A DNA stretch of 61,965 nucleotides, the filler included, from Dugesia japonica (Eukaryota): NCBI GenBank assembly GCA_001938525.1. It is 6 parts of 6 records of this genome, joined end to end, with 100 filler letters (N's around TTAATTAATTAA, not from the genome) between each part and the next. Parts side by side here need not be neighbours in the genome. Positions count along the whole stretch, not along the records: positions 1 to 8,399 come from MQRL01458595.1; positions 8,500 to 25,770 come from MQRL01583722.1; 4 more parts are not named here. One strand, given 5' to 3'. Made by a program: the position numbers and the translations under genes. The notes under the pieces were generated by a model. It ran no database searches, was not told the DNA's origin, and saw only the letters and a program-made list of their open reading frames with translations. Positions 3,185-34,646 of the stretch are shown one piece after another; the stretch's first letter is position 1; every line of letters starts with the position of its first letter.

Positions 3185-3366
3185 TGTTGGGGTTCCACCT
3201 GAGTAGAACCAAAAATGTGGCTGGGGAAAAAACAGTCCTCAGGGGACCCTTTCAAGAATTTAACCTAATGCCCCTAGGCTAGGTATTCAGCTTATGGTGG
3301 GTGACCTCTCGCTTAATGGGAGGTGCGCGCCCATAGGCCTTTGTATTTGGGTTCACTATTTTCCCT
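3185..3366 (-). ncRNA. Novel structured RNA motif, copy 1
   Basis: Conserved in 4 copies with frame-breaking indels and compensatory stem changes (see findings). Confidence 0.7.
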
Positions 3367-3430
3367 ATTACTACGAATTTATTAAAGGTGAGAAAAAGTT
3401 AAACTAGACACACTTTATTTTATATAATAA

Positions 3431-3813
3431 TTACATCAGATCCAATGCCCCCGGATCTAACCACTGGACCGGATTGGTTGTTAAGAAATTGAATAACGCT
3501 GAATCGTCGTTGTCATCCCATTGGACCCATGTAGGATTTCCTAGTTGACGGGAGAGATCTCCAATGTATTGTTTCAAAAAATCGATTTTGCGCTGCAATA
3601 GTAAATGAGTTTCGTGTGCAAGGGCCTTAGTTTGCTCGGCCAAACTGCTCTGTCGTTTGACTATTAAGTCCAGTCTTTTTATCAATCAATCTCTCTTATT
3701 AAGATGTTTCAGAAGTGCTCGGTCGGTTTTTCGCTTAAGCTGTCGTTCGACCAGGCGTCGTCGCATAATTCGGTGACATCTTCTTAAGCTATTTGGGAAC
3801 GTGATTCGCGGCA
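3431..3813 (-). pseudogene. Cassette ORF B, copy 1 (in-frame TGA near 3686)
   Basis: tttag|TG CCG CGA ATC; PRITFPNSLRRCHRIMRR...QWLDPGALDLM; homologous to 13877-14259 and 24722-25104. Confidence 0.8.
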
Positions 3814-3931
3814 CTAAACAAGATATAACATTATTTTATTCGTTCGGTGACAAAGGCCAATTAACTAAAAAAAAGTAATAGAATTAAAATAAATTTGAAT
3901 ATCAAAACATTTATTTATGCAATGGCAGATA

Positions 3932-4269
3932 TTAAGCTCTCGGAGCCTGTGTACCCTTGTCGACCATCAATGGTTCGAGGGGCATTGCAGTTTTCAATTT
4001 GTGAATATCCTGGACCAGTTTATTCTCTCCGTCTTGGTAGGACCGGATAACCTCCGTGAAAGATTCCAGTTGAGCCTTCCAGACTCTTTCCTGTTTGTGT
4101 GAAGCTTCCGCTTCTGCCTTAAAGGCTAGACATTTTCTTTTATACCGGCTCACCTTACTTTTGGTGGTGGCTATCTCGGACTCCCAGCGTCGCTTTGCCA
4201 GGCGATAGAAATCACTGGCGTCTCTCATCTTTTTAGCGGGAGCTGAAGAACGGTTCAGAGAGGAATGCA
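3932..4269 (-). CDS. Cassette ORF A, copy 1 (coiled-coil orphan)
   Basis: ttgcag|TG CAT TCC; HSSLNR...YRLAKRRWE...FTEVIRSY...LEPLMVDKG; AATAAA just after the stop. Confidence 0.75.
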
Positions 4270-4465
4270 CTGCAAAATAGAACTTATTTACTAAAGGTTT
4301 CATCATTGAAATTACTGAAGTACTCGAAACCCTTAAAAAAAATTTTAATAACCTTACAAGAAATTTTCCTTTATTAAAATAATGACAAGAGCGAAGCCGA
4401 TTATTACTAACTAGAGACACGTATTTATTTATTAAATTAAACATCAAATAATATAAACACTATTA

Positions 4466-4809
4466 TTTAGTGGATAAGTCAGACACAGGAGCCGTGTTTT
4501 CAAAGTCTTCAACCCAGGTTTGGTTCCCGAACACCTCAGAGTAAATTTATGATAAAGGCTTGCACGACTGGGGGTGGGGCCGGAGGTTGGTAATTAAAAG
4601 GCGTGGCGTGAGTACGCACTGGCCCATTCCACTGTTGATAGTTAAGCCGTTCGCCGAAGTCACGTATGGGAGAGACGCTGGCTTACACGGGTGGTAAATT
4701 CAATTGATCCACCAAGATGCCCGCATCACGATTATGAGGGTTATGGTGGCGCCTAAAAATTATACGGCGGGTTCTTCGATCAATTATCCGTTCCCATATG
4801 GACTTTATT
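4466..4809 (-). pseudogene. Cassette ORF C, copy 1 (start decayed to ATA, internal stop)
   Basis: atgcag|A ATA AAG TCC ATA TGG gives IKSIWERIIDRRTRRIIFRRHHNPHNRDAGILVDQLNLP*, aligning to MEHKWEILLDRTSGGTLFKRYKNPYDRDASILVDRANLP. 3' limit approximate. Confidence 0.7.
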
Positions 4810-4859
4810 CTGCATTAGAAATTTGACTTAAATCCACATAATATAATCATTTATAAAAT

Positions 4860-5582
4860 TTTAAAATTTTGAAGTTTGGATTTTTGCTAGATGAAAAACT
4901 TTATTTAATAATGAAGATGAAGATAATAATTCACTAAGAAAACAATGTAGAGATCTTGGAAATTTCTATGATACTGATATCCATGGGGACGAACTTTGCA
5001 CTAAAATTTGTGGCTGCCAAATGTTACTTCTGGTAAGATATTATACTTTACCAGCAACTCCATTGGATCTTTTGTCTTTCATCATTTATTATGGTGAGAA
5101 CGTTTTTCTAATCCTGCAAATTGCCCTGCAAAGCCTTCTAACAATTTCATTATCAATCGCTAGCTGTGAGCGTTCTTTCAGCCAACTGAAGTTAATTTTG
5201 TCATATTTGCGTGCATCGATGAGACAATATCACCTTAGTGACCTTGCACTTCTCAGTATTAAACGAAACGAAATGAAAAAGTGTGATTTTGATGAAGTTA
5301 TTGATAAATTTGCCACAGTTAAATCCAGAAAAATCAACCTGATATGAACATTCTACATGTACNNGCACAATGTATGTATAAAGTTATTGGTAAAAATTAA
5401 ATAAAATATAGTATTTCGTTTGTATTACTTCTTGACTAATCACATGTTTCGTCTGCATCAGTTTCTTCATTAGTATTTATTTTAGTAGCTATTACATTGG
5501 ATGACTTTTAATTTTTTAGTGGGGGGGGGCGCAAAATATGGATCTTGTCCCCGGGTTGCCAAACACACTAGCTACGCCTCTG
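4860..5582 (+). mobile_element. hAT (ZMYM1-like) transposase 3' fragment with right terminus
   Basis: Dimerisation motif SIASCERSFSQLKLILSYLRASM...LALLSI; ends CTAGCTACGCCTCTG, a hAT-type TIR. Confidence 0.85.
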
Positions 5583-6173
5583 AATAGAACACATTCAAAA
5601 TTTATTGTTTTTAACAGTGCTTCAAAATAATTGATGAAATAGAACACTTAAGGGAAAGACTTTAGTATACCAATTTCTAAAAAGGTGAATTTGATCAACC
5701 ATACAAGGATATTCGCGACCACGACCGTCTCGACGCCAAAATGATATATAATATTTTATAATTGTTTCTCACAGTCAATATTTTATTTTTTCATTATTAG
5801 TGTCGGCTTTTATTTTTAAATTTAATTCCTTTTTCTAATATTTCTACAATTTCCATTTACTGATTTCCGCTTTATTATCAACTCTTCTGCTTAAAACTAC
5901 AATTTTCGGACATTCTTTTAATTAACCGGTAATTCCAGCCCAACAATTTTATCAAAATAAAGCTCACTACAATAAATAACTTATATGATGTGAAGATAAA
6001 TGATATGCAGGCCTGAAAAAGTGACGGAGATCATCATGTGTGTATGAAACAATAAGTTTTCAAATAAATATAGAATCGTAAAAAATCCATTAATAAATAA
6101 TCCAAATGTTTATTTTTTGACAGATAAATACAGCATTTAATTTAATAAACTTGTTTTCTTTTTACAATAAAAG

Positions 6174-6460
6174 CTAAAAGTTGAATTCTGCTTTTTTCCA
6201 GTAACCCGACATGTCAGAAATTACAATTTTGTTGTCGGTGATCTCTAGAATTCCATATGGTTGTTCTTTTTCTGCTGCTTCAATTATACCGGGTAATGTT
6301 ACATGGATAAATTTATCCGTTATTATAACCGATGCGTCATGAACATGTCCACAAATATATGCTTTAACACACGAAAACTTTTCAATTATTTGAAGCAGTT
6401 GGTCATCGTTCCATATCATCCATCGTGGGTTATGTGATTTACTTAATAATGGAGTGTGAC
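6174..6460 (-). CDS. ADPRM: Terminal exon of a Mn-dependent ADP-ribose/CDP-alcohol diphosphatase-like metallophosphoesterase
   Basis: Acceptor ttgcatttag|GT CAC; HTPL...WN...CVKAYICGHVHD...HVTLPGIIE...YGILEI matches the ADPRM C-terminus (GHxH motif). Upstream exons not recognised. Confidence 0.75.
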
Positions 6461-7909
6461 CTAAATGCAATTTATATGAATAGCTAATTACGTGAGATTT
6501 ATAATTTGAATTAAAATATTTTACTAAATATCATTCATGGTTTTGACAAGAACAGAAAGTCTGTAGTAAATGTATAGAACCATTACCATTTAGTAGGGTT
6601 CTAAATTCAAAAAAAGGTCCACGTTGAGTAGTTCAACAGGCTGTACAAGGATTCATGAGAATAAAAGCAATGCGTTGTAACCAATTTTATATCCAAATAA
6701 ATTACAACGCAACAGATTCACACGCGAATAAGCAACGCCAAATAATAAGCAAAAAAGACCACAGATTTACTGATTTTTATGCATGAATATAAAATGTTTT
6801 AAATATAATCACCGTTAAATTGTAATTCAAGTTACACGGACAAACTCATTGTTTTGCGCTCTTGACTTCGTTCCTCATTTTAAAAATTAATATTTGAATT
6901 TCTATATCGTAGTCATGGCAACGTAACGAAAATTTGACCCGAAAACATTGACATTTCTTAAAGTTTCAATAATAACATAATGTGGAACTCTTTTGTTTAA
7001 CACTAAATTTTTGGAATGATTCAATTTTCTATGTAAATATATAGCAAATTGAGTCAAATTAACTCGGTCCGTAAATCTAGTGTTACAAATTACATAAAAA
7101 TTTAATGTTTTTTAGATTCATGACATTTCAACCATAACTCAACTGAGTTGATAATAACATTTAATAAGTAAATAGTTGGTGTCAAAGACAAGGCAAACTT
7201 TTCATTCTACGTATTTAAGTTATTTGATTTTACAAATAAGTTTCGGCGGACAGCGGATGCCCGGTCGGCCCCCTTAAACCGACATTGAATGTAATTTAAA
7301 TGAATGTAAAGTTTCTATATATTATTGTAAATTATTTTATTGTATATTATTGTAAAATTATCCCAATTTATTTTCTGTGTCAGCTAAAATCAGTCAGATT
7401 TGATCCATTGATGGATTAACTTTTAAGACCTCTGAGGTGGAATATCAGAACTTAAATTCATACAACGCTAATCGTGTGAAATTTTTCGATTATATTTTAT
7501 AAATTAAAATAAAAATATAATAATTACAAGAGCATTATTTGTAGCAATATTTGGATAAAAGTAGATGGATACTTGCGCATCGGACAGCCACCCCGTTGAC
7601 GCAATAATATAGTGACCTATAAATTAGGAGGTCAGTGAAGATGATTTAAATTACAAACAGAAGTAATAAAATTATTGATAAATAAAATATTTAATAATAC
7701 CAAAAAATTCCTATTTTATAGTATTTTAAATTGTTTATTTAAATCATTGACATTTGATATTTTCATATTAAATTTACTTTGAATATTCGGAATTATAAAT
7801 AAAAAACAGAATTAATAAAATTAGATTAATCAAATATTTAATACTGCCAAGAAAAATGATATTTTCATATCAAAATGTAATTTTTTATATTATTATTAGT
7901 AAGATATTT

Positions 7910-8337
7910 TGAATTTCGTCTTGTGATGGGACCCTAAAAACGAAATTCAAAATAACATCATTAATAGACTTTTGTATTCATGCTATGAATGAATATGAAC
8001 TTGCAAACAAAGCAGTTCATATACTGATTCCATTTGCAACCACATACCTATGTGAAACTGGCTTTTCTACATTAACTGATATCAAATCAAAATATAGAAA
8101 TAAGTTGAATGTGGAGAATGACATAAGAATGAAATTAAGAAGTACATTCCTGGTTTGTGCGCCAAAAATTTGCCGCAAGGCTCACATTGATGGATTTATT
8201 TTTATATTATTACTTACAGTCATATACTCTATTTAAATAAAATCTGTAATCTTTGATTTTCATGATTACTTTTCATAAGGTGGTCCGTATAAAGCTTAAA
8301 AAGAAAAAGTGGTCAACAATGAGGTTAAGAACCGCTG
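7910..8337 (+). mobile_element. hAT (Buster/Charlie-like) 3' fragment with right TIR
   Basis: LIPFATTYLCETGFSTLTDIKSKYRNKLNVENDIR; ends AGGTTAAGAACCGCTG. Confidence 0.85.
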
Positions 8338-8399
8338 ATCTATTACATAATCACATTTAAAACATATTGGTACGCGTAAAAGTTAGCAAAAAATACATT

Positions 8400-8499
8400 N
8401 NNNNNNNNNNNNNNNNNNNNNNNNNNNNNNNNNNNNNNNNNNNTTAATTAATTAANNNNNNNNNNNNNNNNNNNNNNNNNNNNNNNNNNNNNNNNNNNN
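8400..8499. other. Artificial scaffold linker N44-TTAATTAATTAA-N44 (also at ~25771, 34875, 44835, 53261)
   Basis: Identical six-frame-stop 12-mer centred in 100-bp gaps. Confidence 0.95.
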
Positions 8500-9312
8500 A
8501 AATACTCTCAAATGGTTCATTAGCCTTTAATTTTATAATTTCCTCCTTTGTTCTAATTGTTGTTACTTTGTTCGTTTGGCACGCTGTACATTCTTTAATT
8601 ACTTTTGACACAGTTTCACTTAACTCTTCAATATCATATTCATTTTTCAAATAATTTATGACTTTTTCCATACCGGCGTGCACCAATAATTTATGGATTT
8701 CTTTTACCATTTGAATTTTCTTTTCTGATGGGATCCATATTTTGTCGTATTTTGTTTTTATTATATCTTCTATTAATCGAAACTTTTTACATGTTCCATT
8801 TTTTATATCATTCTTTATCTGTTCAATTTCTTGTACGTTACTTTGCCATTTATATGTATCTGAACTTGATATACCATTAATTGTTCTTGTCTTTATTTTC
8901 CTTCCTTTGGATTTTCATGATCTGTTAGGCATTGTACACACGTACCACAATTCATTCTTGACAGCATATCTGCATTCGTGTGTTTCGAACCTTGTGATCT
9001 GTTCTCACCAAAAATCTTTTTCCATACAAATAATGTTTAAAATGGTTACAAAAATAGTAAATGNNNNNNNNNNNNNNNNNNNNNNNNNNNNNNNNNNNNN
9101 NNNNNNNNNNNNNAAAATCTTTTTCCATACAAATAATGTTTAAAATGGTTACAAAAATAGTAAATGGCCAATAATTCTTTTCTTGTTGTACAATATCCCT
9201 TTTTATGAGCTGACATTGCATGTGACCCATATGCAATGATTTGTTCTACACCTCTTCCATCTATTTGCGATAAAACTGCTCCAATGGCATCAAAGCTCGC
9301 ATCAAAACGCAT
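8500..9312 (-). mobile_element. Gypsy pol fragment (RNase H and integrase H2C2 finger)
   Basis: DASFDAIGAVLSQ...YCTTRKELLAIY...HYLYGKRFLVRTDH; EIHKLLVHAGMEK...CTACQ. Confidence 0.9.
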
Positions 9313-9561
9313 CCCAACGTTGCGTTCCAGCTTTTCATCCCAACGTTGCGTTCCAGCGTTTCATCCCAACGTTGCGTTCCAGCGTTTCATCCCAACGTTG
9401 CGTTCCAGCTTTTCATCCCAACGTTGCGTTCCAGCTTTTCATCCCAACGTTGCGTTCCAGCGTTTTATCCCAACGTTGCGTTCCAGCGTTTCATCCCAAT
9501 GTTGCGTTCCAGCTTTTCATCCCAACGTTGCGTTCCGGCTTTTCATCCCAACGTTGCGTTC
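9310..9561. repeat. 26-bp minisatellite CATCCCAACGTTGCGTTCCAGC(G/T)TTT, ~9.5 copies
   Basis: Seen directly; accounts for the spurious FIPTLRSS/SSQRCVPAFHPNVAF ORFs. Confidence 0.95.
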
Positions 9562-11731
9562 TAGCATTTGTGTGTAATCGTTAGAGAGATAAAAAAAAAT
9601 TTTCCAAAAACAAAAGTTTATTAAAATTATCAAAATAATTAAAAATTTATTTTCCCAGCAGAATCTGAACAAAAAATTATTGATTTAATTTTATACTAGG
9701 ATATCGATTTTTCCGTTGACCGACAGCAGTAGTAGCAGAAATAGTAACACACGAATACAATTGCCGAAATGATCATAGCAATAATTAATAAATTTATTAT
9801 CAATATTAAATAATCTTCTGAATCAAATTAAATATTAATTATTGATTACTTTTTACTTACTTAAAATTATCCAATTTATCAAAATTTCTTTGCAATCTCC
9901 TATCAAATCAAATCAAATCAAAATAATTAATAAAATCACAATATTTATCACCATCAATCACCAAACTCAAATCAACCTTCGAATCTTGATCATCGAGACC
10001 TTTCGTGTCTAATTTGATAACAAGTGATGAAAAATTAGAAAATATTTTCTCTAATTTATCTATTTCTCCTCCACAAGTGCTGGATAACTTGATAATAATT
10101 AATAAATCGATAATCTAGTTACACTTCAGCAGCAAATTAAAATTTATTAAAATTATTTCTAATTATAATTTAATCAATTATCAAAGTTTAACGAGTATTT
10201 CTATTATTCTATTCACAACTAAATAATTACTTTATTATCTTTTGTTATCCCATTTACAACAGTAATTATATTCAAATCAAAAATTTCACATTTATTATAC
10301 TCTTGAGCTTTTAACTTTATCAAATTATTATTAAATTTTACAGTTGGATTTGATAAAGTAAAGTTTAATATGCAATACAAACTTTTGTTTCCAATATTGT
10401 TAAAATTTATTTTATATCCGCATTCAGTGGTGAAATTTGTTCCATTAATACAATTATTTTTATTAATCTCTACAAGTAATTCTATAAATATTTACACAGA
10501 ACAGAAATACCTTCAAATAAATAAACCTGAATACAAGTAGAAAATATTATTAATAATTTTAACATTATAAATTAATAGAAATATTTAAAATATATCAAAA
10601 ATATTCAATATTTTAATAATTACAAATTCAACTTATAAAATATCACTTTATTCCGAAAATTTATTCATTAATTTAGTCTAACAATTACTTCATTCAATTC
10701 TTAATTTGTAGTTTTAAATTATAATTTCATTAGTTATTTTATCATTAATTAAAAACAATTCAAAATATTTCATAAAGAAATTTAATAAAAACATTTCATT
10801 TATTCTTTAATAATATAATTATTTGTTAACCTTATTTTAATCCAAATTACAATAAATAATTCAAATTTATTTGAAAAATATTTTAAGTTCTATTTTCCTA
10901 TTTTATTATAATTATTTTTTAATTAATAATTAGAATTTACTTTTTAAAAGTTATTATTTAAGAAATGGAAAATGTTAATAAATCGAATAAAGGGTTAAGT
11001 GACCATTCATTCGGATTTCGTACAACTATTTTCCTCAAACTGATATTGCAAATATCGTGATTTTCCAACTTACTATAGAATTTTTTTTATAGATAATTTA
11101 AAATCCGCTATTAAATTTAAAGATTTTATGTCCTTTTACAGTGACAAGCCAATTAAACCGGTAGATTTCTGTATAAATTGCAGGCAGCAAATAGTACTAT
11201 GATGATCGGTAACATCACTTTCCTTTAATAATAATTAAACTGCAGTTAAATTAAGGATAATTGAATTTAATTTTATCTTGTATCTTAAAGGATGATAAAA
11301 ATAAAGTTTTTAATAGCTATATTGGAACAGAACCCGGCCATGTTTATCCACTTTAGTCTTTAACAATTGAAGAGGAAAAACTATTAATAAATAAATATTA
11401 GCGGGAAAATAAATTATTATTTAATAAATCGAACTATTATTAATGTTGGGCTCCGAGGTTTTGATGTTTTATATCTTCTCTTGTAACTCTTGGTACTTCT
11501 TTCTTGACATTCCTTTTATCTCATTATCTTGTAGAGGCAGATACCCCGGAGCCGGCAGAAATTTGGCAACACTCATTGTTTTGCTCCATCCACCCCGAGT
11601 CCATGCGGGACTATGCGGTATTCCGTCTTTTAGAAAGTCTTAGTTGTTATGGTTCATATTAAGTTGAATCAATTTAATCTTTAAACAATGAAGAGACTTC
11701 GATAATAATTACGCATTTATTTTGATATAAT

Positions 11732-12056
11732 TTATGGCGACTCGAAGACTGTTTCCTCGGTAATCACACATTCATCGTAACTTTTGTTCTTCACCTCATA
11801 TTCCTTCCACAATGTCTTTACGTTGGCATAGGATTTGATTATCTCGACAAACATTCGGTTGTTCGCAATGAGTGTGAGTTCTCTCCGGTGACTCACACTC
11901 AATCGTTCTCGCAAGTTAGATATCCTTCGCTTGGTGAGGCTGGCCGTTTCTTGTAGTTTTTTGTTTTCTTTACGTAGCCTTTTTAGTTCAAAATCTGGCC
12001 ACGCGCTGATCGATCAACAACTCTTTTTGAGTGGGTTTGATGATTCTCATTGACAT
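11732..12056 (-). pseudogene. Distant paralog of cassette ORF A (one frameshift)
   Basis: ttatag|A ATG TCA ATG AGA ATC ATC AAA CCC ACT CAA AAA; KPTQK and MFVEIIKSY compare with APTKK and SFTEIIRSY of ORF A; AATAAA after the stop. Confidence 0.5.
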
Positions 12057-12155
12057 TCTATAATTTAAATAGACTAATCATTCATCATAAAATAGTTCGA
12101 TTTTATCGGTATAACAATTTTATCACATAAATTCGTAATAACTAATTAATTTTTA

Positions 12156-12503
12156 TTATAATGATAGAGTTAAATTATTGTAGATTTTATCTCTTTTTCT
12201 CTTTTCTCCTGATTCATGATTGGTTAATTGATGCTCATACTGTTGCTCTTGTTCCCTGATTTTCCCCTTTAATCGCTTTAATTTCTCGAAATGTTGACTA
12301 GTTATTTCCACCTCCAGCCTTTTGATGCGATCCTCCTTCTGATTCATTTGATCTTGTATCATCCACCAGGGCTTGGTATCGGTACCTTCTCTCCCTATGG
12401 AATCCAAAACGTCAGACATGCTGCTGTTTGAACCGATGTTGAAACTGAGTCCTGCTTCACTTAAATTGGCGATGGCTTCTGCTCTCACGAATTGATGGGT
12501 CAT
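12156..12503 (-). CDS. Orphan 115-aa coiled-coil ORF in a second acceptor-ORF array
   Basis: aacatag|ATG ACC; open frame in a GC-richer island. Confidence 0.5.
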   Translation of the reverse strand: MTHQFVRAEAIANLSEAGLSFNIGSNSSMSDVLDSIGREGTDTKPWWMIQDQMNQKEDRIKRLEVEITSQHFEKLKRLKGKIREQEQQYEHQLTNHESGEKRKRDKIYNNLTLSL

Positions 12504-13622
12504 CTATGTTCTAAGTAATAATATTATTAAGTTATTAATATGTGGCTACTGAAAAATTGTAAATCAACTCAAAGAACAGTATATATTATTAATTAAAGGA
12601 ATGTTAACCGATAAATTTTGTTTCGTTTATCCATACTACTCTTGATTAGTAGATCATCGACCACTCATCATCTTGGATGGAGATGGAAGACCTTTATGAA
12701 ATTCATTAAATACTCCTTTTCTATTTCAGACATGATTTTCCACATCACTGTACATAATATTTCATGGTGACCCTATTGTAATCAATCAAGAATTATCAGG
12801 AATCCAGCTCCCTCTGGATGATGAATGGTCCTTCTATCTCTTAGAGCATCATTATGGTAATATCACAAGGTGTATTTTCGTATCTAAACCAACAAAACCT
12901 TTATGTTTAAATACTGAAATTATAGCTAAGAAATTAATATTAATCAATTAACAGCAATCCAAATAAATGTTTATTATAAGATATGAAATTAATGAATAAT
13001 AAACACATAGTTGAAAGTTTGATATTTTTACATACACTGAACAATCGTTTATTTCAGTCTAATGGCCATATAATAAGGAGAAAGATCCAACCACCCAAAT
13101 CCAACATCAGGTTAATCACGTTTAATAGAAAAACAAGTTTTGAACGACGAGTGTCTCATTCTATCACTACAATCANNNNNNNNNNNNNNNNNNNNNNNNN
13201 NNNNNNNNNNNNNNNNNNNNNNNNNTGAACGACGAGTGTCTCATTCTATCACTACAATCAATTCGCCGTTTATTATCTAGTAATAATTGTTCGTTCTAAT
13301 CATCATAGTNNNNNNNCTCAGCTCTTTTATTGATCAAGGCAGGAAATTGTCATTTCTTCCGTGTTACTCTACGTTAATATTTATCATTTCGCGACACGTT
13401 TCTTTCTTTCTACACATTGTCAATTCGCTATAGTTCATCATTTTATCATCGTTATTTATGAGTGGAAGATCTCGCGAGGAAGGAGCTGATAAGATGGACC
13501 GCCGGAGATAGCAGAACTACCCTCAGATGATCCCTCTTCAGTGTCTTCCAAAAAATAAAAAACAATTTAAAATATGATAACATAAAAATAGAAGGAATCC
13601 TTACTTCTTTTCCCGATAGATG

Positions 13623-13811
13623 TGTTGGGGTCCCCCCTGAGTTGAGTGACAAGAAAAGGTGGCTGGGGAAAAAACAGCCCTCAGGGGAACCCTTCCAAGA
13701 ATTTACCCTACCGTCCTTGTGGTAGGTTTTCAGTTTATGTTGGTTGACCTTACTCTTAATGGAAGGTACACGCCGATAAACCTTTATATTCGGGTTCAAT
13801 AATTTTTCCCT
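13623..13811 (-). ncRNA. Novel structured RNA motif, copy 2
   Basis: Same stems with compensatory substitutions, including 13-bp GGGUUCCCCUGAG/CUCAGGGGGACCC. Confidence 0.7.
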
Positions 13812-13876
13812 TCTTGTTATCGTTAAAATACAGAAATCACACTTTTGAATACAGACATTTTATTTTATGGAAATAT

Positions 13877-14259
13877 TTAGAGCAAATCCAGCGCCCCTGG
13901 ATCTAACCACTGGTTTGGTTTTGTTACCATGAAATTGAAAGCTACGATGTCGTCATCGTCATCCCATTGTGTTACCGATGGGTTGCTTATTCGACGGGAC
14001 AGGTCAGCAATATATTGCTTTAAGAACTCGATTTTCCGCATCAACAGCTGTTTGGTTTCGGTTTCCAAAGCTTTGGTTTGAACCGCCAGATCATTTTGCT
14101 TTTTTATAATTAAATCTAATTTTTTAATCAGTTGATCCCGTTGTTCTAAATGTTTCATAAGCGCCTTATCCGTCTTATGTTTTAGGTGACGTTCGACCAG
14201 TAAGCGGCGCATAATTCTATGGCACCTCCGGATACTATTGGGAAAGTTAATTCGTGGCA
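13877..14259 (-). CDS. Cassette ORF B, copy 2 (intact)
   Basis: cattcag|TG CCA CGA ATT; ends QWDDDDD...QWLDPGALDLL; AATAAA at ~13860. Confidence 0.8.
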
Positions 14260-14380
14260 CTGAATGAAAAACCATTAACAGAGAAATAATAACAGTTATT
14301 ATAATCAAGTTTATTATGTATTCAATGGTGTAAAAGAACTGAAGCTAAGATTAAGATATACAAAATTTTATTTTTTAAAG

Positions 14381-14748
14381 TTAAACATGGGGAGTGGATT
14401 TCGTCTTGGTGCCCTTATCAATCATCAAAGGCTCCAGATATGATTTAGTTTTGAGAAGTAGGATGTCTTTGACCAGTTTATTCTCACGGTCATGGCTGGA
14501 CCGGATAATTTCGGCGAACGACTCTACCTGGGACTTCCACACTCTCTCTTGGTCCTGCACCATTTTTATTTCTTCGCGGATATTCGTACATTTGGTTTTA
14601 TATCGCTTTACCTTAGAGTGGGCCGTAGCGATTTCTGCTTCCCATCGCCTCTTGGCTAGTTTGTATAGGTCCCAAGTAATCTCCTTATCTTCACTATCTT
14701 CGCGTAATTTTTTAGTCGGGGCCTGCGATCGATTCAAAGATGAGTGCA
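14381..14748 (-). CDS. Cassette ORF A, copy 2 (intact)
   Basis: atttcag|TG CAC TCA; synonymous changes relative to the other copies; AATAAA at ~14367. Confidence 0.8.
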
Positions 14749-14901
14749 CTGAAATATAAATGTAGTAAAATTTAAGAATTCTAATTAAAATGAGGTGTAA
14801 TTCGAAAACAAGACCAAACAGGGTGGATCAATAAATATTCTACACTAAGGAAACAGAGAAAAAACAAGTTTTTATTCAAATTTTATTAGACAGTAGTGAG
14901 T

Positions 14902-15330
14902 TTACACGAGCACATCAGTGTGATCTTCTGTTGCATTCTCGTTGTTATCGTTGATTAACGCGTTCCGCGCACTCCACAGATTATTTTGTATAAAAGAAGA
15001 CAGTTGTGCCGTAGGGGGTAAGAGGTTCGTGGTGGGTCCCACTAATGAAGAACCATCGTGCCATACACGTTCTATTTGCGGAGTTTCGGTGGACCGCTCA
15101 AAGGACAATGGTGCTGGTGGAAAGGTGACTCTATCTCTTCTCGGTCCACACCAACTATAATAGGCAGCCCGTTCGGTCGCGTCCCACTGTCTTTCCTCAG
15201 CGGCCTGCTCGGGTGACAAATTAGAGTGCTCCACCAGAACACCGGCATTCCTATTGTATGGATTCCGATATCTTTTAAAGGTCGTTCGGCCGGAATGGAC
15301 GTTTAGACACACTTCCCATTTGTATTCCAT
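14902..15330 (-). CDS. Cassette ORF C, copy 2 (intact, 142 aa)
   Basis: ttgtag|AGATTCAT ATG; homologs in copies 1 and 3; two AATAAA at ~14870-14887. Confidence 0.8.
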   Translation of the reverse strand: MEYKWEVCLNVHSGRTTFKRYRNPYNRNAGVLVEHSNLSPEQAAEERQWDATERAAYYSWCGPRRDRVTFPPAPLSFERSTETPQIERVWHDGSSLVGPTTNLLPPTAQLSSFIQNNLWSARNALINDNNENATEDHTDVLV

Positions 15331-15529
15331 ATGAATCTCTACAATTAATAGGGAGTAATGGTATAATTTGAAATAGTGAGAATGGGTTAGATAACTAGTT
15401 CATATTAGAGGAAATTAATTTATAATTACAATGAGACAAAAAGTTTATTTTACAGCAATTTTACACAAATGACACGACAGGAAAACAATCTTTTAAGTGG
15501 ATATCACCCGCACGAATTAGAACATCTGG

Positions 15530-15697
15530 TTATTCCTCGTCTATATCAACTCTGGTTGGAAAGGGGAACATCTCGACGAAACACTGGAGGTCTGTTTCGT
15601 CGGGGTGTTCCACCTCACCCCTCGTTAAATAGTGGGCAATGACAGATTCGTCGTTGGCAACACCACCTCGCGCAATTCTAATGTATGGTTTGATTTT
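15530..15697 (-). CDS. Cassette ORF D, copy 2 (55 codons, LxCxE-like acidic motif; not in the ORF track)
   Basis: tttgtag|AAA ATC...GEVEHPDETDLQCFVEMFPFPTRVDIDEE*; C-terminal half conserved in copy 3. Confidence 0.6.
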   Translation of the reverse strand, partial: KIKPYIRIARGGVANDESVIAHYLTRGEVEHPDETDLQCFVEMFPFPTRVDIDEE

Positions 15698-18600
15698 CTA
15701 CAAAAAAAAATTTNNNNNNNNNNNNNNNAAATTTATTTTATACTGTGTGGATTTTAACGAATTTGTCATTTAATTATCATATTTCGTGATCGTCTCCTTA
15801 CCGGCGTGACTAGAGTTGTTTAAAAGGTAAAGCAATCGAGATAGTTTAACAGTTATTTCGTTTGTGTATAATCTAGCTAGATAGATACAATTACGGCAAT
15901 GATTTTCTGCAGAATTAGTGGATTTATCGATTTCCTAACCAAGAGAAGAAACTGAGCTAATTGTTGCCTCAAGCACTGATGTCGATCATGGGTCTCGATC
16001 AAAATACAATCTATTAATCATGTTACTGAAGAGGAATTTTTTAATCAATAGTGTAAGTTTGCTAAGTAAACTACCTTGGTTCTCCGGTAAATAAAAAATA
16101 GAAGTAGAATTTCGTTAATTTATCACTTTCTATTAACAATTAAAAATGATGGATATTTATCAAATTAGTTTACCCTCGTAATTCTTGGTACAATAACTCG
16201 TAATGTTATATTTTGTTATATTATTTTTTTTTATTAACAATGAAAAGGATGGATATAAAATTTGTTTATCATAGAAATTCTTGGTAAATTCAATCATAAA
16301 GTTATATTCCGTTATTTTATCAATTACTTATCTAAACGATGAATATTTATAAAATAACAACTATAATGGTTCATCATAGAAAATTAAAATAAATCATAAA
16401 GTATTATTTTGTTATTTTAACGATTTTGAGTAATTAACAAATGAATATTTATAAAATAACAACTGCATTTAGCTTAACATAGAAATTTTATTAAAGTAAA
16501 TGTTATTTCACTTTTCACAACATGACTATTTAATATAATCAAGATAATATTTTTACTTTTTCTTTTGGCTTATAGGTTGTTTGCAACGGGCTTCTTTTCG
16601 AGAACAATCACTACTAATCTTGCAATTCCTTGGGTCGATTCTAAAGTCCGGAATTCTTTTACTTTCTTGTATTACGATTTTCTGTTATCGTACACTTCTG
16701 TTGCCGCACGATGACTTTTGACTGATTTGCACTTGTATGTTAAGCTTTTTTCGACTATCCGTTGTTTTACACAGTTCACTGTCAATTTATTACCGTAAAT
16801 TCCTTTTGAATAATTAAGTGTTTGAAAGCTAACGTTTGGTTTTTCCAAGAGAAAATAATGATAATTAGTTGTTTTTTTCAGCTAAAGTTAGGGATCCTTT
16901 TATAGGATTTGTCATACACCCCGACTTCTTCTTGATTTGCTGATTATTTTTGGATCAGCCTTTTCTTGATCTTACTGGTTACTGAACCAATTTTCCAAAA
17001 TTTTCTAAAAATTTTGGTGCTGCTATTGGCAGCTATTTTTATCANGACACATGACATTTGTGTCTTTGTTATATTTTTATTTTTAGGTCTTCTATTGGCT
17101 GGATCTTGGAAACCTTGCCGTACCCTTCTGGAAGGTGGTATGTTTTCCTTCTTCAGAATTTTAATTGCACATGGATGTTTTCTCTTCATTTTTTCTTGTC
17201 CGGGTTTTTTCCGACTTCCGGATAAAACAGATTTTTTCACTAATTTCGCTTCTTTTTATTTTAAAATTAATTAATTTTCTTTTGCTAATTAATTATTTAC
17301 AATACTGCTTTTCTTTGTTGTTTATTATTAATTAATTAATTTTTCTTAATTTCCAAATGTAAATTGCTTCTATGTTAACCTGTTCTTCAGCTTCGTCTAA
17401 GCCTTTCGTTCGTTCTCTGCTAAGGATGATTACATGTTTTATATTTCATTATTGATAATTACAGCGGTTCTGCTATTCTTTGCCGTCGATTTGACTTTTG
17501 GCCTTATTCTCGTTTAGCGAGTGTTTTACCCCAACAGATGTTCTGATTTAATTAAACAGTTAATGGTGTTTAATGGAAATTTTTAAGAGTGTTTTTCTAA
17601 TAATTTTGATTTCCTTTTATACCTCACTGTATCGTCAAATTTTAACAGATACAGTTGGCGTCCACTTCAGATTTCTGTTAATGCAAGAAATCGTACTCTG
17701 TTTACCCGTAGCTTCTACAGAGATGTCCAAATATGGGCGTGATTATTTTTATGTTTTTGTTAATTCTGTAGCGGATTATGTGCTCACAGAAGTTCTATAT
17801 TTTTTTCCTCAATTGGAGAAGCTTAAAAAAATAATATTTTTCTTAAAAAATAATAATTTTCTTAAAAAATAATAATTTTCTAAAACTTGTATGAGTTTTA
17901 GAAATAAAAATAACTACACAATCACATGCAGATATAAACATATCAACCCTGAATTCTAACATAAAATCATCAGAGGTTCTTCTGCATATAACTTTTCTTT
18001 TATAATTCCTTCTTATTCATTATAAATAATAATATTTATTGAATAATAATAATTTTAATTATATTTATCGATAATAATAATAATTTCCCATTTTTATATT
18101 TTTTTAAAAATTTATAATAAAAATACAGTTCTTGTACTTAAACCTGACTAATAATCTATTATTTTTTTATTTAAAATGATTATGATGATTTATTCTGCTT
18201 TTCTTTTCCTATAATTACTCTTTAAAATATCTAAATATTTTAATATAGTTATTTGTTTTAATTTCTCCTTTTTTCTAATCATTATAACTTTATTTTTAAT
18301 ACATGAATTCTTTCAGCACATTTATATAAATTATAAATAATATTATTTTCTTGGTTTTATTTTACATTCTCCTTTTTGATTATTTAAATACTTTCTGAGC
18401 ATATTTTACCTTAGCCATCTAATTTTTGATTATCTTCAATTATTATGTTTTAATATTTAATCAATTCTTCGTTTTCTCTACAACATATTACTTATTTATT
18501 ATTACCCTTTAATTTATTTCCTTCTCTGCTTTTCATATTTTACGAAAGGCTGTTTCAGCCCAACATTAATATAATAGATAAAATTATCAAAAAAGGTTCA

Positions 18601-20456: not shown

Positions 20457-20608
20457 CCCCTCTTGCGATAATACCAAAGTGAGTTACTATTTTAGATCAA
20501 TAAATTTGCAATAATCAGTAACATATATTAACCTATTTTCTATTTCCGCGCGATAACCAGTAAATGACTTCAAAATAGTAACTCATTTTGGTATTATCGA
20601 GAAAGGGG
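20457..20608. mobile_element. MITE-like element with ~37-bp TIRs
   Basis: CCCCTCTTGCGATAATACCAAAGTGAGTTACTATTTT ... AAAATAGTAACTCATTTTGGTATTATCGAGAAAGGGG. Confidence 0.75.
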
Positions 20609-21070
20609 CTCAATAACTCATAGTGAGCCAGTGCGCTTACATCTACCTACTAAAATATTAACCCAACATATAAAAGTTACATAAATCACACGAAAATTAT
20701 AATCTAACGTATAAAAAATCGAAACCAACTTATTAAAATTATAATTACAATTATTGCGAGAATAATTGTTGGACTTAACCATTGATTGCATTTGAGATTT
20801 TAGTAAAATAAAGAAAAAGGTTTGATAAAAATAAAATGTATTTGTAACGAAATTCAAATTTTCGACACTTGCCTTCTTCAGGAATGATGACTTTTTGCTA
20901 GATTCAAAACGATAATAGATCTTTGTTACAAAATTCTTTATATTTTATCTAAATTTTTTTTTAAAATTAAATCTCAAAAAATCTTTTTTAAATTAAATTG
21001 AATAGAAAATCGTTCAATAATCGCGAATAGACGTATTTTCTTGTCTGCAATTAAGTACATTAATTATAAT

Positions 21071-21260
21071 TGTTGGGGTTCCACCTGAGTCGAGGTTGAC
21101 AGAAAACACTGACCTGGGAAAAACGGCCCTCAGGGGATCCTCTTCAAGAATTTGAATCTAATGTCCCTAAATTAGATATTCAGTGCAGAGCGGTTGACCT
21201 TCAACTTCATGCGAGGTTCACACTCCTACACCTTTGGTTTGGGTCCATATTCATTTCCCT
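21071..21260 (-). ncRNA. Novel structured RNA motif, copy 3 (most diverged)
   Basis: Stem sequences rewritten but still pairing (GGUGUAG/CUGCACU; AUCUAAU/AUUAGAU). Confidence 0.7.
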
Positions 21261-21319
21261 ATTATTTTAATCATTATATAAAAAACAAAATTCTAATAAT
21301 AATATGTATTATTTTCAAA

Positions 21320-21678
21320 TCACATTTCATCCAGAGTACCCGGGTCTAACCACTGGGTAGGCTCTTCTGGTAAAAAATTAAACACAGCTGTGTCGTCGTT
21401 ATCGTCCCATTGTAAACATCACACGTTACCTAATTAACGAGGCAGGTCGGAGATATAATGCTTTAAAAAATCTATTTTATTTTGCAGGAGTTGTTTGGTT
21501 TGCATTGCCAGGTCATTCTGCTTTTTCACAATAACATCCATCTTTTTGATCAACTTATTGCGCTGGGATAAATGTTTTAGTAGGGCCCTCTCACTGTCTT
21601 TTGACATGTTTTTCTACCAGCATGTTTGTATCAGATGGTGACATCGCTTAAGACTTGTAGGGAGTCGGATCCTATGCA
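21320..21678 (-). pseudogene. Cassette ORF B, copy 3 (disrupted)
   Basis: tgtttag|TG CAT AGG ATC; ends QWLDPGTLDEM*; internal frameshifts and stops. Confidence 0.75.
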
Positions 21679-21825
21679 CTAAACAAATAAGAAATAAGAA
21701 TAGAATTTAATTTTTAAAAACAAATTTAATTAAGAGGGGACTCTATCAACATCACCAGTATGAACGTAAACGAATTATTTAGACAGCCACATTTATTTAA
21801 AAACTAAACACAACATTACAAAGGG

Positions 21826-22184
21826 TTAAGTCCGCGATGTCTGAATGCCCTTGTCCATCATAAGGGGTTCAAGCGGCATCGCTGTTTTTAACTTTAAAAT
21901 ATCGATGATCAGTTTATTCTCTCGGTCTTTGTAGGACCGGATGATTTCGGTGAAAGATTTTATCTGGGCCTTCCATACTCTTTCCTGGGTATGGGAGGCT
22001 TCGGCCTCTTTCTTAAATTCTACGCATTTTTTCTTATACCGACTTACTTTACTATTGGCATTTGCCGTGTCGGCCTCCCATCTGCGTTTGGCTAGCCGAT
22101 AGAGGTCCCAGGTCATTTCCTGGTCCTCGCTGGTCTCCCTTACCTTTTTGGTCGGAGCTGGAAGTCTATTTAGCGATGAATGCA
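21826..22184 (-). CDS. Cassette ORF A, copy 3 (intact)
   Basis: tctatag|TG CAT TCA; ~119 aa homolog. Confidence 0.8.
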
Positions 22185-22352
22185 CTATAGAATGAGTAAA
22201 TAAATTAGACTAGCTACATATTTAATGTAATAGATTTAAATCAGAATTCAAATTGTGAAAAATCATCAATGGACAAGCAACATGACAAGTCATCCTAGGC
22301 TTAAAGTAATAAAGACATTTATTAAAAAATATTTAACAAATAACAAAGGGCG

Positions 22353-22772
22353 CTAGTCGCTCGGAGTGGTGTTTGTGTTTTCATCATTATCGTTCTCGGC
22401 CGAATTCCTTATAGTCCATAAATTGTTATGGACAAAGGCAGTTAAATTGTGTAATGGGCGTAGATGGTTAGTAGTGACACCTACAACCGAAGACCATTCG
22501 TGCCATTTTCGAATAATTTAGGGCACGCCATCTCAATTTATGGTTACAACTGGAACCGCATGATAAACGGCCCTTGTATGATCAGGACCGTTCCGCGTGA
22601 AATATGAGTGGCGCTCATTTGCGTCCCACTTGCGTTCGTCGTTTGCGTCTTCAATGGGTAAATTGGCTCTGTCGACAAGAATACTGGCATCTCTATCGTA
22701 GGGATTTTTATACCGTTTGAACAAGGTTCCACCCGAGGTGCGGTCTAACAAAATCTCCCATTTGTGCTCCAT
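22353..22772 (-). pseudogene. Cassette ORF C, copy 3 (disrupted near 22530)
   Basis: attag|G ATG GAG CAC; downstream WHEWSSVVGVTTNHL...FVHNNLWTIRN matches WHDGSSLVGPTTNLL...FIQNNLWSARN of copy 2. Confidence 0.75.
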
Positions 22773-22929
22773 CCTAATATTATTTTTTCGACATTTATTA
22801 AAACCATTTAAATATATTAAAATATGATGGAAAAAAATGATAATAAAGTGATTTCAGAAAGAGGATTAAAATGTTTCTCAATTTTATTTAAACCAGGCCA
22901 TAACAGTTGTCAGTATTATGTTTGCCGTG

Positions 22930-23118
22930 CTACCATTCTTCGTCAAGGTCCACATGGAATTGCTGTGAGAACATTTCGACGAAACACTAGAGATCAGTCT
23001 CATCGGGATGTTCGATCTTACCATGGGACAATATGTAAGCTAAAAATTGCCTCAACCGAGAGGTCTTATGTCGTTTTCAAATTAAGCGTAACGCATTTCT
23101 TAGTTCCGTGGACATAAC
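22930..23118 (-). pseudogene. Cassette ORF D, copy 3 (two in-frame stops)
   Basis: atttcag|GTT ATG TCC...GKIEHPDETDL*CFVEMFSQQFHVDLDEEW*. Confidence 0.65.
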
Positions 23119-24473
23119 CTGAAATTAATATGTACATTAGATCATCACACCACTGCCACCCCTAAGTGCAATATCAGCCAAAAAGAGGCCCAGATTTATG
23201 ATGTCTGGTTCTGGCATCAATAATAAAATTTTAGAGGTCGTCACCCATGATTACTAACCTGCTGATGGAAATAATAATCACTTATTCTGGACTAGTCGTG
23301 ACTTTACGAAAGACGCTTCACAATTCTAATACTCCAATTAAAGGTTCTAACCGAAGGGCATTTTTAGCCTTAACTCTGTCATTGGTGCAGTTCATATCCA
23401 TAACTGGATGGATCATAATAAAAAGAGAAAGCCAACAAATCATGGTGAAAGTGATAATAATATAATAACAGTAAGGCCATCCACTAGTTTAATATTTAAA
23501 TAATAACGTTAATGATGCTAACGGACGACCTCTAAACCATCTAGTTGCTGAAGGTGGTCACGACTATAACAATTGTATATGGATAAGCCTGGTAATAGTG
23601 TTGTTAGTAATAACAACAACCCTTTTAATATACACCATAGTTGTAATGATATTCCGAACGATATTGATGATAATAATTATTATGTCAATACGAAAATTAC
23701 TAACGGTCACAATGCTGACAAAAATTACCATTTTAATAATGAGAACAAGAATTTTAATAATGATAAAAATCATGAAAATAATAATACTAAAGGTGAGAAT
23801 TATGAATCCATTTAACACATGCAAATAAATCATTTTATCATGGTACATACGACAGCAAAATTACTAACGATGGCCAATTTCCTACAAATTATATAAGTCA
23901 CTTCTGAATTATCATAAATGAGCAAAATTACTAATTATTAATAAATGACGGAGATAGAATATGTTAGTTCTAGTGATGTGCTAACTTTAGCCGTGGTGTA
24001 TACGAGACACACACATTCGTAGTCAATATTAGTAATTATGATAGAGAGCTTACATACCATAATTGGATCACTATATATTAGGTAGAACAAGAAATGACAA
24101 AGTTAGTGTGCATTCCGCTATCAACCAGATTCAACGTTAGCATAATTGAAAAAGTGAAAACTGCTTATGAAAGAACTACTGAAAAGTTGCACGGCGAAGC
24201 CAATTCTCGAATCTAAACCAATACGATTTTGGAATTAGTAAATATGGAAATCACAATTATTCATCAGGTGGAATGTTCGAATGGCTCGCTGGATAAGTGA
24301 CATTACACTGCTACATTCAAGAAATAAAAGATAACAGATCTCACACTGGAATTATCGCGAGGACAATCCTGCCAGCGGCTTAATTTGTTAGTTACGAGTT
24401 TAATAAAATTTTCCATCGCTGTTTATGTCCTACCAATTTCTATTAAAATAGCAAATAAAGTAACTCATAGTAT

Positions 24474-24657
24474 TGTTGGGGTTCCACCTGAGTAGGAGGA
24501 AGAAGAATGTGGCTGGGGAAAAACAGCCCTCAGGGGAACCTTTCAAGAATTTAACCTAACGTCCCTAGGTTAGATATTCAGCTTATGGTGGTTGACCTCT
24601 CGCTTAATGAGAGGTGCGCACCCATAGGCCTTTTGATTTGGGTTCACTATTTTCCCT
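24474..24657 (-). ncRNA. Novel structured RNA motif, copy 4
   Basis: Closest to copy 1; ACCUCUC/GAGAGGU, AUCUAAC/GUUAGGU, GGCUG/CAGCC. Confidence 0.7.
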
Positions 24658-30832: not shown

Positions 30833-30932
30833 TCACATTGGAACTAATTACATTCATTGAGTTAAAATTATTAATTAACATGTTCATTTCTTAAACAAAT
30901 AGTTTGGTTCAAGGGGTCGTACATCTACTTGT

Positions 30933-31661: not shown

Positions 31662-31686
31662 TTTTTATTAAATAATTTGAGCTTAA

Positions 31687-32868: not shown

Positions 32869-32871
32869 TTC

Positions 32872-33369: not shown

Positions 33370-33386
33370 TTTTTAACCAACATCTT

Positions 33387-34579: not shown

Positions 34580-34646
34580 NNNNNNNNNNNNNNNNNNNNN
34601 NNNNNNNNNNNNNNNNNNNNNNNNNNNNNNNNNNNNNNNNNNNNNA

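What the first reader, a model, noticed from the sequence alone, without database searches (positions are those of the whole stretch)
3185..24657. Candidate new ~185-nt structured RNA in four copies, with covarying stems and a predicted long-range pseudoknot
SEEN: copies at 3185-3366, 13623-13811, 21071-21260 and 24474-24657 (minus strand), each ~45-55 nt downstream of the poly(A)-type signal after ORF B. There is no shared reading frame, yet pairing is kept while sequence changes. Stem 1: GGCCUAUGG/CCAUAAGCU (copies 1, 4; one mismatch), GGUUUAU/AUAAACU (2), GGUGUAG/CUGCACU (3). Nested stem 2: ACCUC/GAGGU, ACCUU/AAGGU, ACCU/AGGU, ACCUCUC/GAGAGGU. Stem 3: ACCUAG/UUAGGU, CCUAC/GUAGG, AUCUAAU/AUUAGAU, AUCUAAC/GUUAGGU, closed by GAA/UUC. 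Stem 4: GG(U)UCC-CCUGAG/CUCAGG-GGAACC, enclosing a GGCUG/CAGCC hairpin (weak in copy 3) and a variable pyrimidine loop. That hairpin loop (U5-6CCC) is complementary to the conserved 5' GGGAAA(A) ~130 nt upstream. Most G-U wobbles favour the minus strand. KNOWLEDGE: I see no hammerhead CUGANGA/GAAA core, HDV double pseudoknot, tRNA boxes, RNase P CR-I/V or complete group I P-Q-R-S set. INFERENCE: a new RNA motif. Possible roles are a self-cleaving ribozyme or terminator, an Xrn-resistant fold protecting the RNA left after 3' cleavage, a VA/EBER-like viral ncRNA, or a replication/packaging signal.
Basis: partly seen in the sequence, partly recalled or inferred. Interest (0 to 1): 0.92.

Follow-up and report, generated by a model that had tools for sequence, protein, structure and literature searches.

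The report
Folded RNA ending flatworm retrotransposon LTRs
The four look-alike sequences are the last 190 bases of an abundant mobile element in a flatworm, likely the long terminal repeat of a retrotransposon, and they keep their base-pairing while the letters change, so they are likely an undescribed replication signal of that element rather than a free-standing RNA or ribozyme.

Summary
The four copies and their stems are real. With a fifth, diverged copy found here (36134-36321, +), 13 of 40 pairs change on both sides (0 of 500 shuffles; relatedness not controlled). There is no Rfam match. The pseudoknot is plausible but only weakly supported, and the G-U strand argument fails.

The motif is not a stand-alone RNA. 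Copy 2 is the end of a 3,914-bp element with 9-bp inverted ends and a 4-bp target duplication, the anatomy of a solo LTR. It carries a TATA promoter, four spliced micro-genes and poly(A) signals pointing towards the fold. It is nested in a second such element, whose end folds into an analogous three-domain shape with no detectable sequence likeness. The host is a flatworm, and read depth suggests about 10^4 copies.

Best reading: a U5 leader structure that would sit just before the tRNA primer site and help start reverse transcription or packaging, like the Ty1 pseudoknot. The primer site and gag-pol link could not be seen here. This scan noted the same kind of fold earlier in another genome (e1-8146185).

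The parts
3185..3365 (-). Fold, copy 1; 3' end of an LTR-like element whose 5' end is unresolved
13623..13810 (-). Fold, copy 2; last 188 nt of the 3,914-bp element
21071..21259 (-). Fold, copy 3
24474..24656 (-). Fold, copy 4; best-folding copy
36134..36321 (+). Fifth, diverged homologous fold (new here), ending CCCTAACA, with different upstream sequence
   Evidence: nhmmer E 9e-10; covariance model 50.7 bits, E about 3e-12; pairs
13623..17536 (-). Complete solo-LTR-like element, 3,914 bp, ends TGTTGGGGT ... ACCCCAACA
   Evidence: chance of the far end plus duplication about 2e-5 per 10 kb
13619..13622 (.). 4-bp target-site duplication, first copy
17537..17540 (.). 4-bp target-site duplication, second copy
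16896..17098 (-). Predicted promoter: CCAAT boxes at 17098 and 17029, TATAAAAGG at 16904
   Evidence: motif match only
15533..15690 (-). Micro-gene Y exon (EHPDETD motif); homologue near 22930-23130
14902..15330 (-). Micro-gene Z, 142 aa; no homologue found
14381..14748 (-). Micro-gene A exon after a conserved AG|TG acceptor-like site; coiled-coil-like
13877..14259 (-). Micro-gene B exon after AG|TG; under purifying selection (codon positions 73/86/40% alike, copies 2 v 4)
13859..13864 (-). Last poly(A) signal, followed by GT/T-rich sequence; predicted R/U5 border just downstream
11444..18565 (-). Second LTR-like element (about 3.2 kb without the nested copy 2): ends TGTTGGGCT ... AGCCCAACA, duplication TTAA, same TATAAAAGG at 17621, its own micro-ORFs
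11444..11637 (-). Analogous three-domain fold at the end of the second element, with an 11-bp closing stem; not found by the family-1 models
   Evidence: p 0.003 for the closing stem; no hit

Best explanation
The motif is the last 190 bases of a very abundant flatworm mobile element, likely the U5 end of a giant Ty3/gypsy-type long terminal repeat, and it likely works as a cis-acting RNA structure for starting reverse transcription or packaging. SHOWN: the position at the element's end, the 9-bp inverted termini and 4-bp duplication (copy 2), the covarying stems, and stronger conservation than neighbouring synonymous sites. INFERRED: transcription runs promoter, micro-genes, last poly(A) signal, fold. 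In the 5' LTR of a full element the fold would lie directly before the tRNA primer-binding site. The closing stem overlaps the integrase end and would sequester or present the bases next to the primer site. The long-range purine/pyrimidine pairing would compact the leader as the Ty1 pseudoknot does, and the invariant GGG loop and the internal loop would be Gag or RT contacts. The copies in this window are solo or 3' LTR leftovers; selection acted while their lineages replicated.
For: Termini and duplications for two nested elements (chance 2e-5 and 1e-4 per 10 kb). Homology stops at the CA end in 4 of 4 copies, with flanks 42-51% alike against 69-90% for the motif. Both TATAAAAGG matches in the window lie on the sense strand of the two elements, 633 and 945 nt from their 5' ends (1.8 expected by chance anywhere). 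ORFs, acceptors and the last AATAAA point the same way. Covariation. A second LTR family ends in an analogous fold. Summed contig depth in run X2 is 213,322 on the motif against 18-153 on the element's low-copy middle part and about 10 for the locus's own contig. In 102 contigs the stem-3 loop reads GGGAC where copy 2 differs, and 6 RNA reads of run X10 show a stem-3 variant with a further both-side change. The host is a flatworm: top named EMC3 hits are flukes and tapeworms at 80-85%. Planarians carry giant gypsy-like elements in thousands of copies (PMC6431247, passages). SIR, AATAAA, GT-rich stretch and TATA are the LTR hallmarks (PMC3601003, passages).
Against: No primer-binding site follows any of the six ends and no gag-pol is linked in the window, so the LTR-retrotransposon link and the orientation rest on anatomy. 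Wobble pairs do not pick a strand, and the plus strand folds as well or better in 3 of 4 copies. If the promoter at 16904 starts the genomic RNA, R is about 3 kb with several AATAAA sites, an unusual layout that needs read-through. AATAAA is common here (15 in 3.9 kb). RNA runs gave only 18, 114 and 25 reads, none 99% alike, nearly all only partly laid, and no RNA joints. Copies 2 and 3 do not fold better than shuffles. Run X2 is of unrecorded type, and its depth is not a copy number.
Confidence: 0.62

Rival explanations
1. Same LTR, but the fold begins the replicative RNA. A second start site or a splice acceptor lies at its 5' edge, so the genomic RNA skips the 3-kb micro-gene array and its poly(A) signals, and the purine word at the RNA's very start closes the pseudoknot as in Ty1.
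For: Conservation starts abruptly at the GGGAAA word, and all four copies have an AG at or 1-3 nt before it. The fifth copy has an acceptor-like TTGCAG about 110 nt after its last AATAAA. Ty1 uses nucleotides 1-7 of its RNA in a 7-bp long-range pairing needed for reverse transcription (PMC4974528, passages). It would solve the read-through problem.
Against: No RNA read shows such a start or joint. No conserved TATA at -25 to -30. AG is common. A spliced 5' R would tend to lose the micro-genes at strand transfer (inference).
Confidence: 0.17
2. The genomic RNA is the plus strand. The fold is at the start of U3 just after the polypurine tract, and the micro-genes are an antisense unit with its own promoter, which would explain why introns and poly(A) signals survive.
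For: The termini are symmetric. The plus strand folds as well or better in copies 1, 2 and 4, and A.C states outnumber G-U states. Hairpins at the U3 start exist in Sireviruses and HIV (PMC3601003, passage). Copy 1 has a short purine run before its plus-strand TG.
Against: The two plus-strand TATA-like words lie inside or beside coding exons (14755, 14989). The A.C excess comes mostly from the decayed fifth copy. An earlier scan note places a primer site after this kind of fold (e1-8146185, not checked here).
Confidence: 0.1
3. The fold is an unknown self-cleaving ribozyme, or an exonuclease-blocking structure, that processes or protects the RNA left after cleavage at the last poly(A) site.
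For: It lies just downstream of a poly(A) signal, has invariant single-stranded words (GGGAC loop, AAAUUCUU linker) and a possible pseudoknot.
Against: No hammerhead, HDV, group I or Rfam match. A second family ends in the same shape with none of the invariant words, which is unlike a catalytic core. No pile-up of RNA ends was listed at the motif (low depth).
Confidence: 0.07
4. The element is a non-autonomous cut-and-paste DNA transposon with TGT ends (Ginger-like), or a Penelope/Terminon-like element, and the fold is its end signal.
For: TGT...ACA ends with a 4-bp duplication also occur in Ginger elements (recalled). Terminons carry co-oriented coiled-coil ORFs and a 3' fold (PMC6431247, section 8).
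Against: The inverted ends are only 9 bp, there is no transposase or RT in the complete 3.9-kb element, the fold is at one end only, and there is no hammerhead or telomere-repeat tail. Exact inverted ends with a duplication are not Penelope features.
Confidence: 0.04

Closest known systems
Burro / GYPSM1 giant gypsy-like LTR retrotransposons of planarians (PMC6431247, passages read; Grohme et al. 2018 not held)
   Same: Flatworm host, thousands of copies, multi-kilobase LTRs implied (internal region up to 25 kb, total over 30 kb), accessory ORFs.
   Different: No sequence comparison was possible. The passages read describe neither LTR-borne spliced micro-genes nor an RNA fold at the LTR end.
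Ty1 5'-terminal long-range pseudoknot (PMC4974528, passages read)
   Same: A 6-8-bp pairing between a purine word and a pyrimidine run over more than 100 nt in a retrotransposon leader near the primer site; needed for starting reverse transcription and bound by Gag in Ty1.
   Different: In Ty1 the partner lies downstream of the primer site, in gag. Here both strands lie inside the LTR. No sequence likeness was tested, and function is not shown.
Rous sarcoma virus U5-IR stem-loop (named in a PMC3601003 passage and its reference list; primary paper not held; role recalled)
   Same: A stem at the U5 end that overlaps the integrase-recognised bases beside the primer site.
   Different: Much smaller. 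Here there are three domains over 190 nt plus a possible pseudoknot.
MDG1-group (412, Mdg1) sORF1/sORF2 with an internal poly(A) site (PMC11952523, passages read)
   Same: Small accessory ORFs 5' of gag, with an internal poly(A) site that full-length RNA reads through.
   Different: Those ORFs are unspliced and lie upstream of gag. Here at least four acceptor-led micro-genes lie inside the LTR, upstream of the fold.
Terminons / Penelope-like pseudo-LTR hammerheads (PMC6431247, section 8 read)
   Same: Co-oriented coiled-coil ORFs and a structured RNA at the element's 3' end.
   Different: No hammerhead, no telomeric tail; this element has inverted TG...CA ends and a target duplication.

Membership tests
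Solo LTR of an LTR retrotransposon | Short inverted ends TG...CA | tested here: met
   9-bp perfect inverted ends on two elements
Solo LTR of an LTR retrotransposon | 4-6-bp target-site duplication | tested here: met
   CATC for copy 2, TTAA for the second element; not found for copies 1, 3, 4, whose far ends are unresolved
Solo LTR of an LTR retrotransposon | TATA, then AATAAA and a GT-rich stretch, in order on one strand | tested here: met
   Motif matches only; start and end sites not mapped
Ty3/gypsy (Burro-type) element | Two such repeats flank gag-pol, with primer-binding site and polypurine tract | not testable with these tools
   No genome held; none of six ends is followed by TGG; collection scans found no relative
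Ty3/gypsy (Burro-type) element | Sequence match to a described Burro LTR | not testable with these tools
   No Burro sequence available; the paper is not held
Known Rfam RNA family | Covariance-model hit at gathering score | tested here: not met
   Nothing on the four motifs at E up to 5; best 17.7 bits against 80 needed
Hammerhead / HDV-like / group I ribozyme | Conserved catalytic core words | tested here: not met
   One CUGANGA in copy 1 only, no CGAAAY in any copy, no HDV L3 or group I R/S words inside the folds (core words recalled)
Pol III VA/EBER-like RNA | Internal B box and no internal run of four or more U | tested here: not met
   No B box inside the four folds on either strand; U5-6 run inside the sense strand
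Ty1-type 5' pseudoknot | One strand is the first nucleotides of the genomic RNA | not testable with these tools
   RNA reads too few
Ty1-type 5' pseudoknot | Long-range pairing supported by covariation | tested here: inconclusive
   Invariant in 4 of 4 copies; the fifth copy pairs at 6 of 8 with both changed loop letters matched, chance 0.03-0.09, judged after the fact
Penelope-like / Terminon | Hammerhead next to the 3' end; no inverted TG...CA ends | tested here: not met
Ginger DNA transposon | Inverted repeats of tens to hundreds of bp and a gypsy-like transposase (recalled) | tested here: not met
   9-bp ends; no long ORF in the complete element

The most novel reading that the evidence does not exclude
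These flatworm LTRs are two-in-one units: a 3-4-kb cassette of spliced, separately polyadenylated micro-genes, followed by a pseudoknotted RNA domain that defines the 5' end of the replicative RNA, by its own start site, by splicing or by self-processing. The genomic RNA would thereby bypass the cassette's poly(A) signals, and the fold would couple that choice to primer use. Unrelated LTR families would have kept the same three-domain shape with no shared sequence.
Probability: 0.2. Interest if true: 0.75.

Novelty: new variant of a known kind. Interest (0 to 1): 0.45.

Why it matters
Leader structures that control priming and packaging have been mapped for yeast Ty1/Ty3 and for retroviruses. 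The searches run here showed none for a flatworm retrotransposon. This fold has on the order of ten thousand genomic copies in several diverged lineages, so one genome holds enough natural variation to solve its structure by covariation alone. It also marks LTR ends for annotating a repeat that is a large share of this genome. It poses a clear mechanistic question: how does a genomic RNA get through several poly(A) signals inside its own 5' LTR? It is not evidence for a new class of free non-coding RNA.

Tried and rejected
No whole genome is held, so no full-length element, primer site or genome-wide alignment could be seen.

Collection scans:
- Viral contigs, DNA pattern: 1 locus, L001, a chance match inside a phage holin-like ORF.
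- Viral contigs, ORFs A, B, Y: 0 confirmed of 32, 288 and 6 candidates.
- Metagenome contigs, DNA pattern: 0. ORF Y: 1 of 291 candidates, L002, antisense to a bacterial MutS-like ORF and without the fold, rejected.

Protein searches:
- ORF A: 0 of 987 candidates. ORF Z: 0 of 22. Both searched similar lengths only.
- ORF B profile: 1 hit, P0001, a repetitive bacterial-type surface protein, rejected.
- Pfam gave only sub-threshold coiled-coil matches for A and B; the Atlas gave unnamed clusters only.

RNA data: no RNA holder was listed. RNA reads laid on 11300-16600 were too few for strand, start, end or splice calls.

Structure tests: the wobble strand test is uninformative. The family-1 models do not find the second family's fold, so it is an analogue, not a shown homologue; its 6-bp 5'-to-loop complement could be chance. 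An HTLV-like fold bridging AAUAAA to a distant cleavage site was considered and judged unlikely, because GT/T-rich sequence follows the hexamer directly. No matching duplication was found for copy 1: a family-2-like start lies at 5945, but the flanks differ.

Literature: searches listed no paper on this fold. Grohme 2018, Miller 1997 and Huang 2013 are not held. Grohme's extended data and Repbase entries, which I could not see, may already describe these LTRs.
Full report
Setting. The window is a string of small scaffolds joined by linkers from an AT-rich eukaryote. It starts with an intron-containing EMC3 gene. The best named homologues of one EMC3 exon are from flukes and tapeworms at 80-85% identity, against 70-78% for nearly all other animals listed. 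The host is therefore a flatworm; the AT richness and repeat load suggest a planarian (inference). No whole genome is held.

The observation. Four copies end in CCCCAACA on the minus strand at 3185, 13623, 21071 and 24474. They are 69-90% alike, against 42-51% for the 60 bases beyond the end. On a plain MAFFT alignment, 90.7% of 172 cells pair and 8 of 43 pairs change on both sides (2 of 500 shuffles). A profile and a covariance model built from the four copies both find a fifth copy at 36134-36321 on the plus strand (E 9e-10; 50.7 bits). With it, 13 of 40 pairs change on both sides, some through three pair types; 0 of 500 shuffles reach this, and slid partners give 1-5. These controls ignore relatedness and five sequences are few, so this is good but not formal evidence.

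Further support, and limits. Six RNA reads of run X10 show another stem-3 variant with a new both-side change, and 102 contigs of run X2 read GGGAC in the stem-3 loop where copy 2 differs. Rfam has no match. Single-copy folding beats shuffles only for copy 4 and for copy 1's plus strand. Wobble pairs do not favour the minus strand: 7 G-U against 6 A.C states in the four copies, 8 against 12 with the fifth. The long-range pairing is present but invariant in the four copies. The fifth copy has two changed loop letters, and both are matched in an upstream word that pairs at 6 of 8 positions, four bases further out (chance 0.03-0.09). That is suggestive only.

What the motif is part of. Homology continues upstream through exon-like ORFs (B, A, Z, Y), each led by a splice-acceptor-like AG and followed by AATAAA. 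An earlier scan note (e1-9268182) describes such an array in a solo LTR, so I searched for the far end and a duplication. Copy 2 runs from 17536 to 13623 (3,914 bp), begins TGTTGGGGT, ends ACCCCAACA and has CATC on both sides (chance about 2e-5 per 10 kb). It is nested in a second element, 18565 to 11444, with ends TGTTGGGCT and AGCCCAACA and a TTAA duplication. Both carry TATAAAAGG on the same strand, the only two matches in the window. Short inverted ends, TATA, AATAAA and a GT-rich stretch are the conserved LTR features (PMC3601003, passages). The far ends of copies 1, 3 and 4 were not found; copy 4 may lie inside copy 3 (not shown). None of the six ends is followed by TGG, so these are solo or 3' LTRs.

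Abundance and selection. In run X2 the summed contig depth on the motif is 213,322, against 47,168 on part of ORF A, about 4,300-6,600 on ORF B, 16,149 on Y and 18-153 on the element's low-copy middle part. The contig of this very locus has depth 9.8. Taken loosely, that is about 10^4 motif copies; the tool warns that depth is not copy number, and the run's type is unrecorded. ORF B of copies 2 and 4 is 73/86/40% alike at codon positions 1/2/3, so these are long-separated lineages under selection. Their motifs are still 79% alike. The ORFs have no homologues in the searches run.

A second family. The end of the outer element folds into three adjacent domains closed by an 11-bp stem five bases before the end (pair probabilities 0.98-1.0 for ten of them; p 0.003 against shuffles). 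It was the deepest bin of that element in X2 and in X10. The family-1 models do not find it, so the shape is shared but the sequence is not. This argues for a structural role tied to the LTR end and against a catalytic core.

How it most likely works. Promoter, ORFs and the last poly(A) signal put the fold in U5 (inferred). In a full element's 5' LTR it would lie directly before the primer site, with its closing stem overlapping the integrase-recognised end, as the RSV U5-IR stem does (named in PMC3601003; role recalled). In Ty1 a 7-bp long-range purine/pyrimidine pairing is needed to start reverse transcription and is a Gag site, though not shown to be needed for packaging (PMC4974528, passages). 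I put 0.62 on this reading. The open problem is that the genomic RNA must pass several poly(A) signals in its own 5' LTR. MDG1-group elements read through one such site (PMC11952523, passages). Alternatively the replicative RNA starts or is spliced at the fold's 5' edge (0.17), or the micro-genes are antisense and the fold opens U3 (0.10). A ribozyme or nuclease-blocking role (0.07) and a non-LTR element (0.04) are least likely. RNA reads were too few to decide: 18, 114 and 25 laid, none 99% alike.

Comparison and novelty. Planarian Burro elements are the obvious candidates for the parent (PMC6431247, passages and section 8), but membership could not be tested. A supplement row of PMC13524379 lists planarian env-carrying elements with no LTR or primer site assigned. 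Passages of PMC8532177, PMC11410931, PMC13238120 and PMC4558846 did not describe this fold, and seven literature searches listed no paper on it. The original Burro paper could not be read. This scan noted a fold at planarian LTR ends before, in another genome (e1-8146185); its claim of a following primer site was not checked here.

Verdict: a real, apparently undescribed conserved RNA fold, but a cis-element of a retrotransposon end and not a new free RNA. New variant of a known kind; interest 0.45.

Noticed in passing
window 14748 and 14259 (-), and the same sites in copies 1, 3, 4: ORFs A and B start with TG right after the acceptor-like AG in all four copies, so an upstream exon ending in A would create the ATG by splicing (also noted in e1-9389716). 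The second element has a donor GAA|GTAAGG at about 13605. No RNA joint was seen.
   Followed up: partly
window 27077-33947 (-): Polinton-like gene block: a protein-primed B polymerase of 1251 aa with N-terminal zinc fingers (Pfam), and a 165-aa ORF with an adenoviral-protease-like motif (recalled).
   Followed up: no
window 11735-13560 (-): A second set of co-oriented micro-ORFs in the outer element, including a 115-aa coiled-coil-like ORF (12156-12503); no likeness to ORFs A, B, Y, Z in tblastn.
   Followed up: partly
window 40300-40990 (-), 5600-5945 (-), 20668 (-): Further TGTTGGG starts. The one at 40990 resembles copy 2's 5' end and the one at 5945 the second family's; matching 3' ends were not established. 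A possible end at 38299 has a near-matching 4-bp flank.
   Followed up: partly
window 5021-5347 (+) and 39200-40200 (+): hAT-type transposase remnants (label from a recalled motif), similar to each other in tblastn; the first lies upstream of copy 1's ORF Z.
   Followed up: no
window 8444-9620 and 34012-34780 (-): Gypsy-type pol/integrase fragments (rve hit for 34012-34410). The first adjoins a 13/26-nt tandem array at 9258-9621. Not linked to the LTRs described here.
   Followed up: no
window 26429-26498 and 31278-31347: A 70-nt, 97% complementary inverted copy of part of a Polinton-block ORF, 4.8 kb away.
   Followed up: no
window 6174-6480 (-): Host metallophosphoesterase-like gene fragment (weak Pfam hit) upstream of copy 1.
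   Followed up: no
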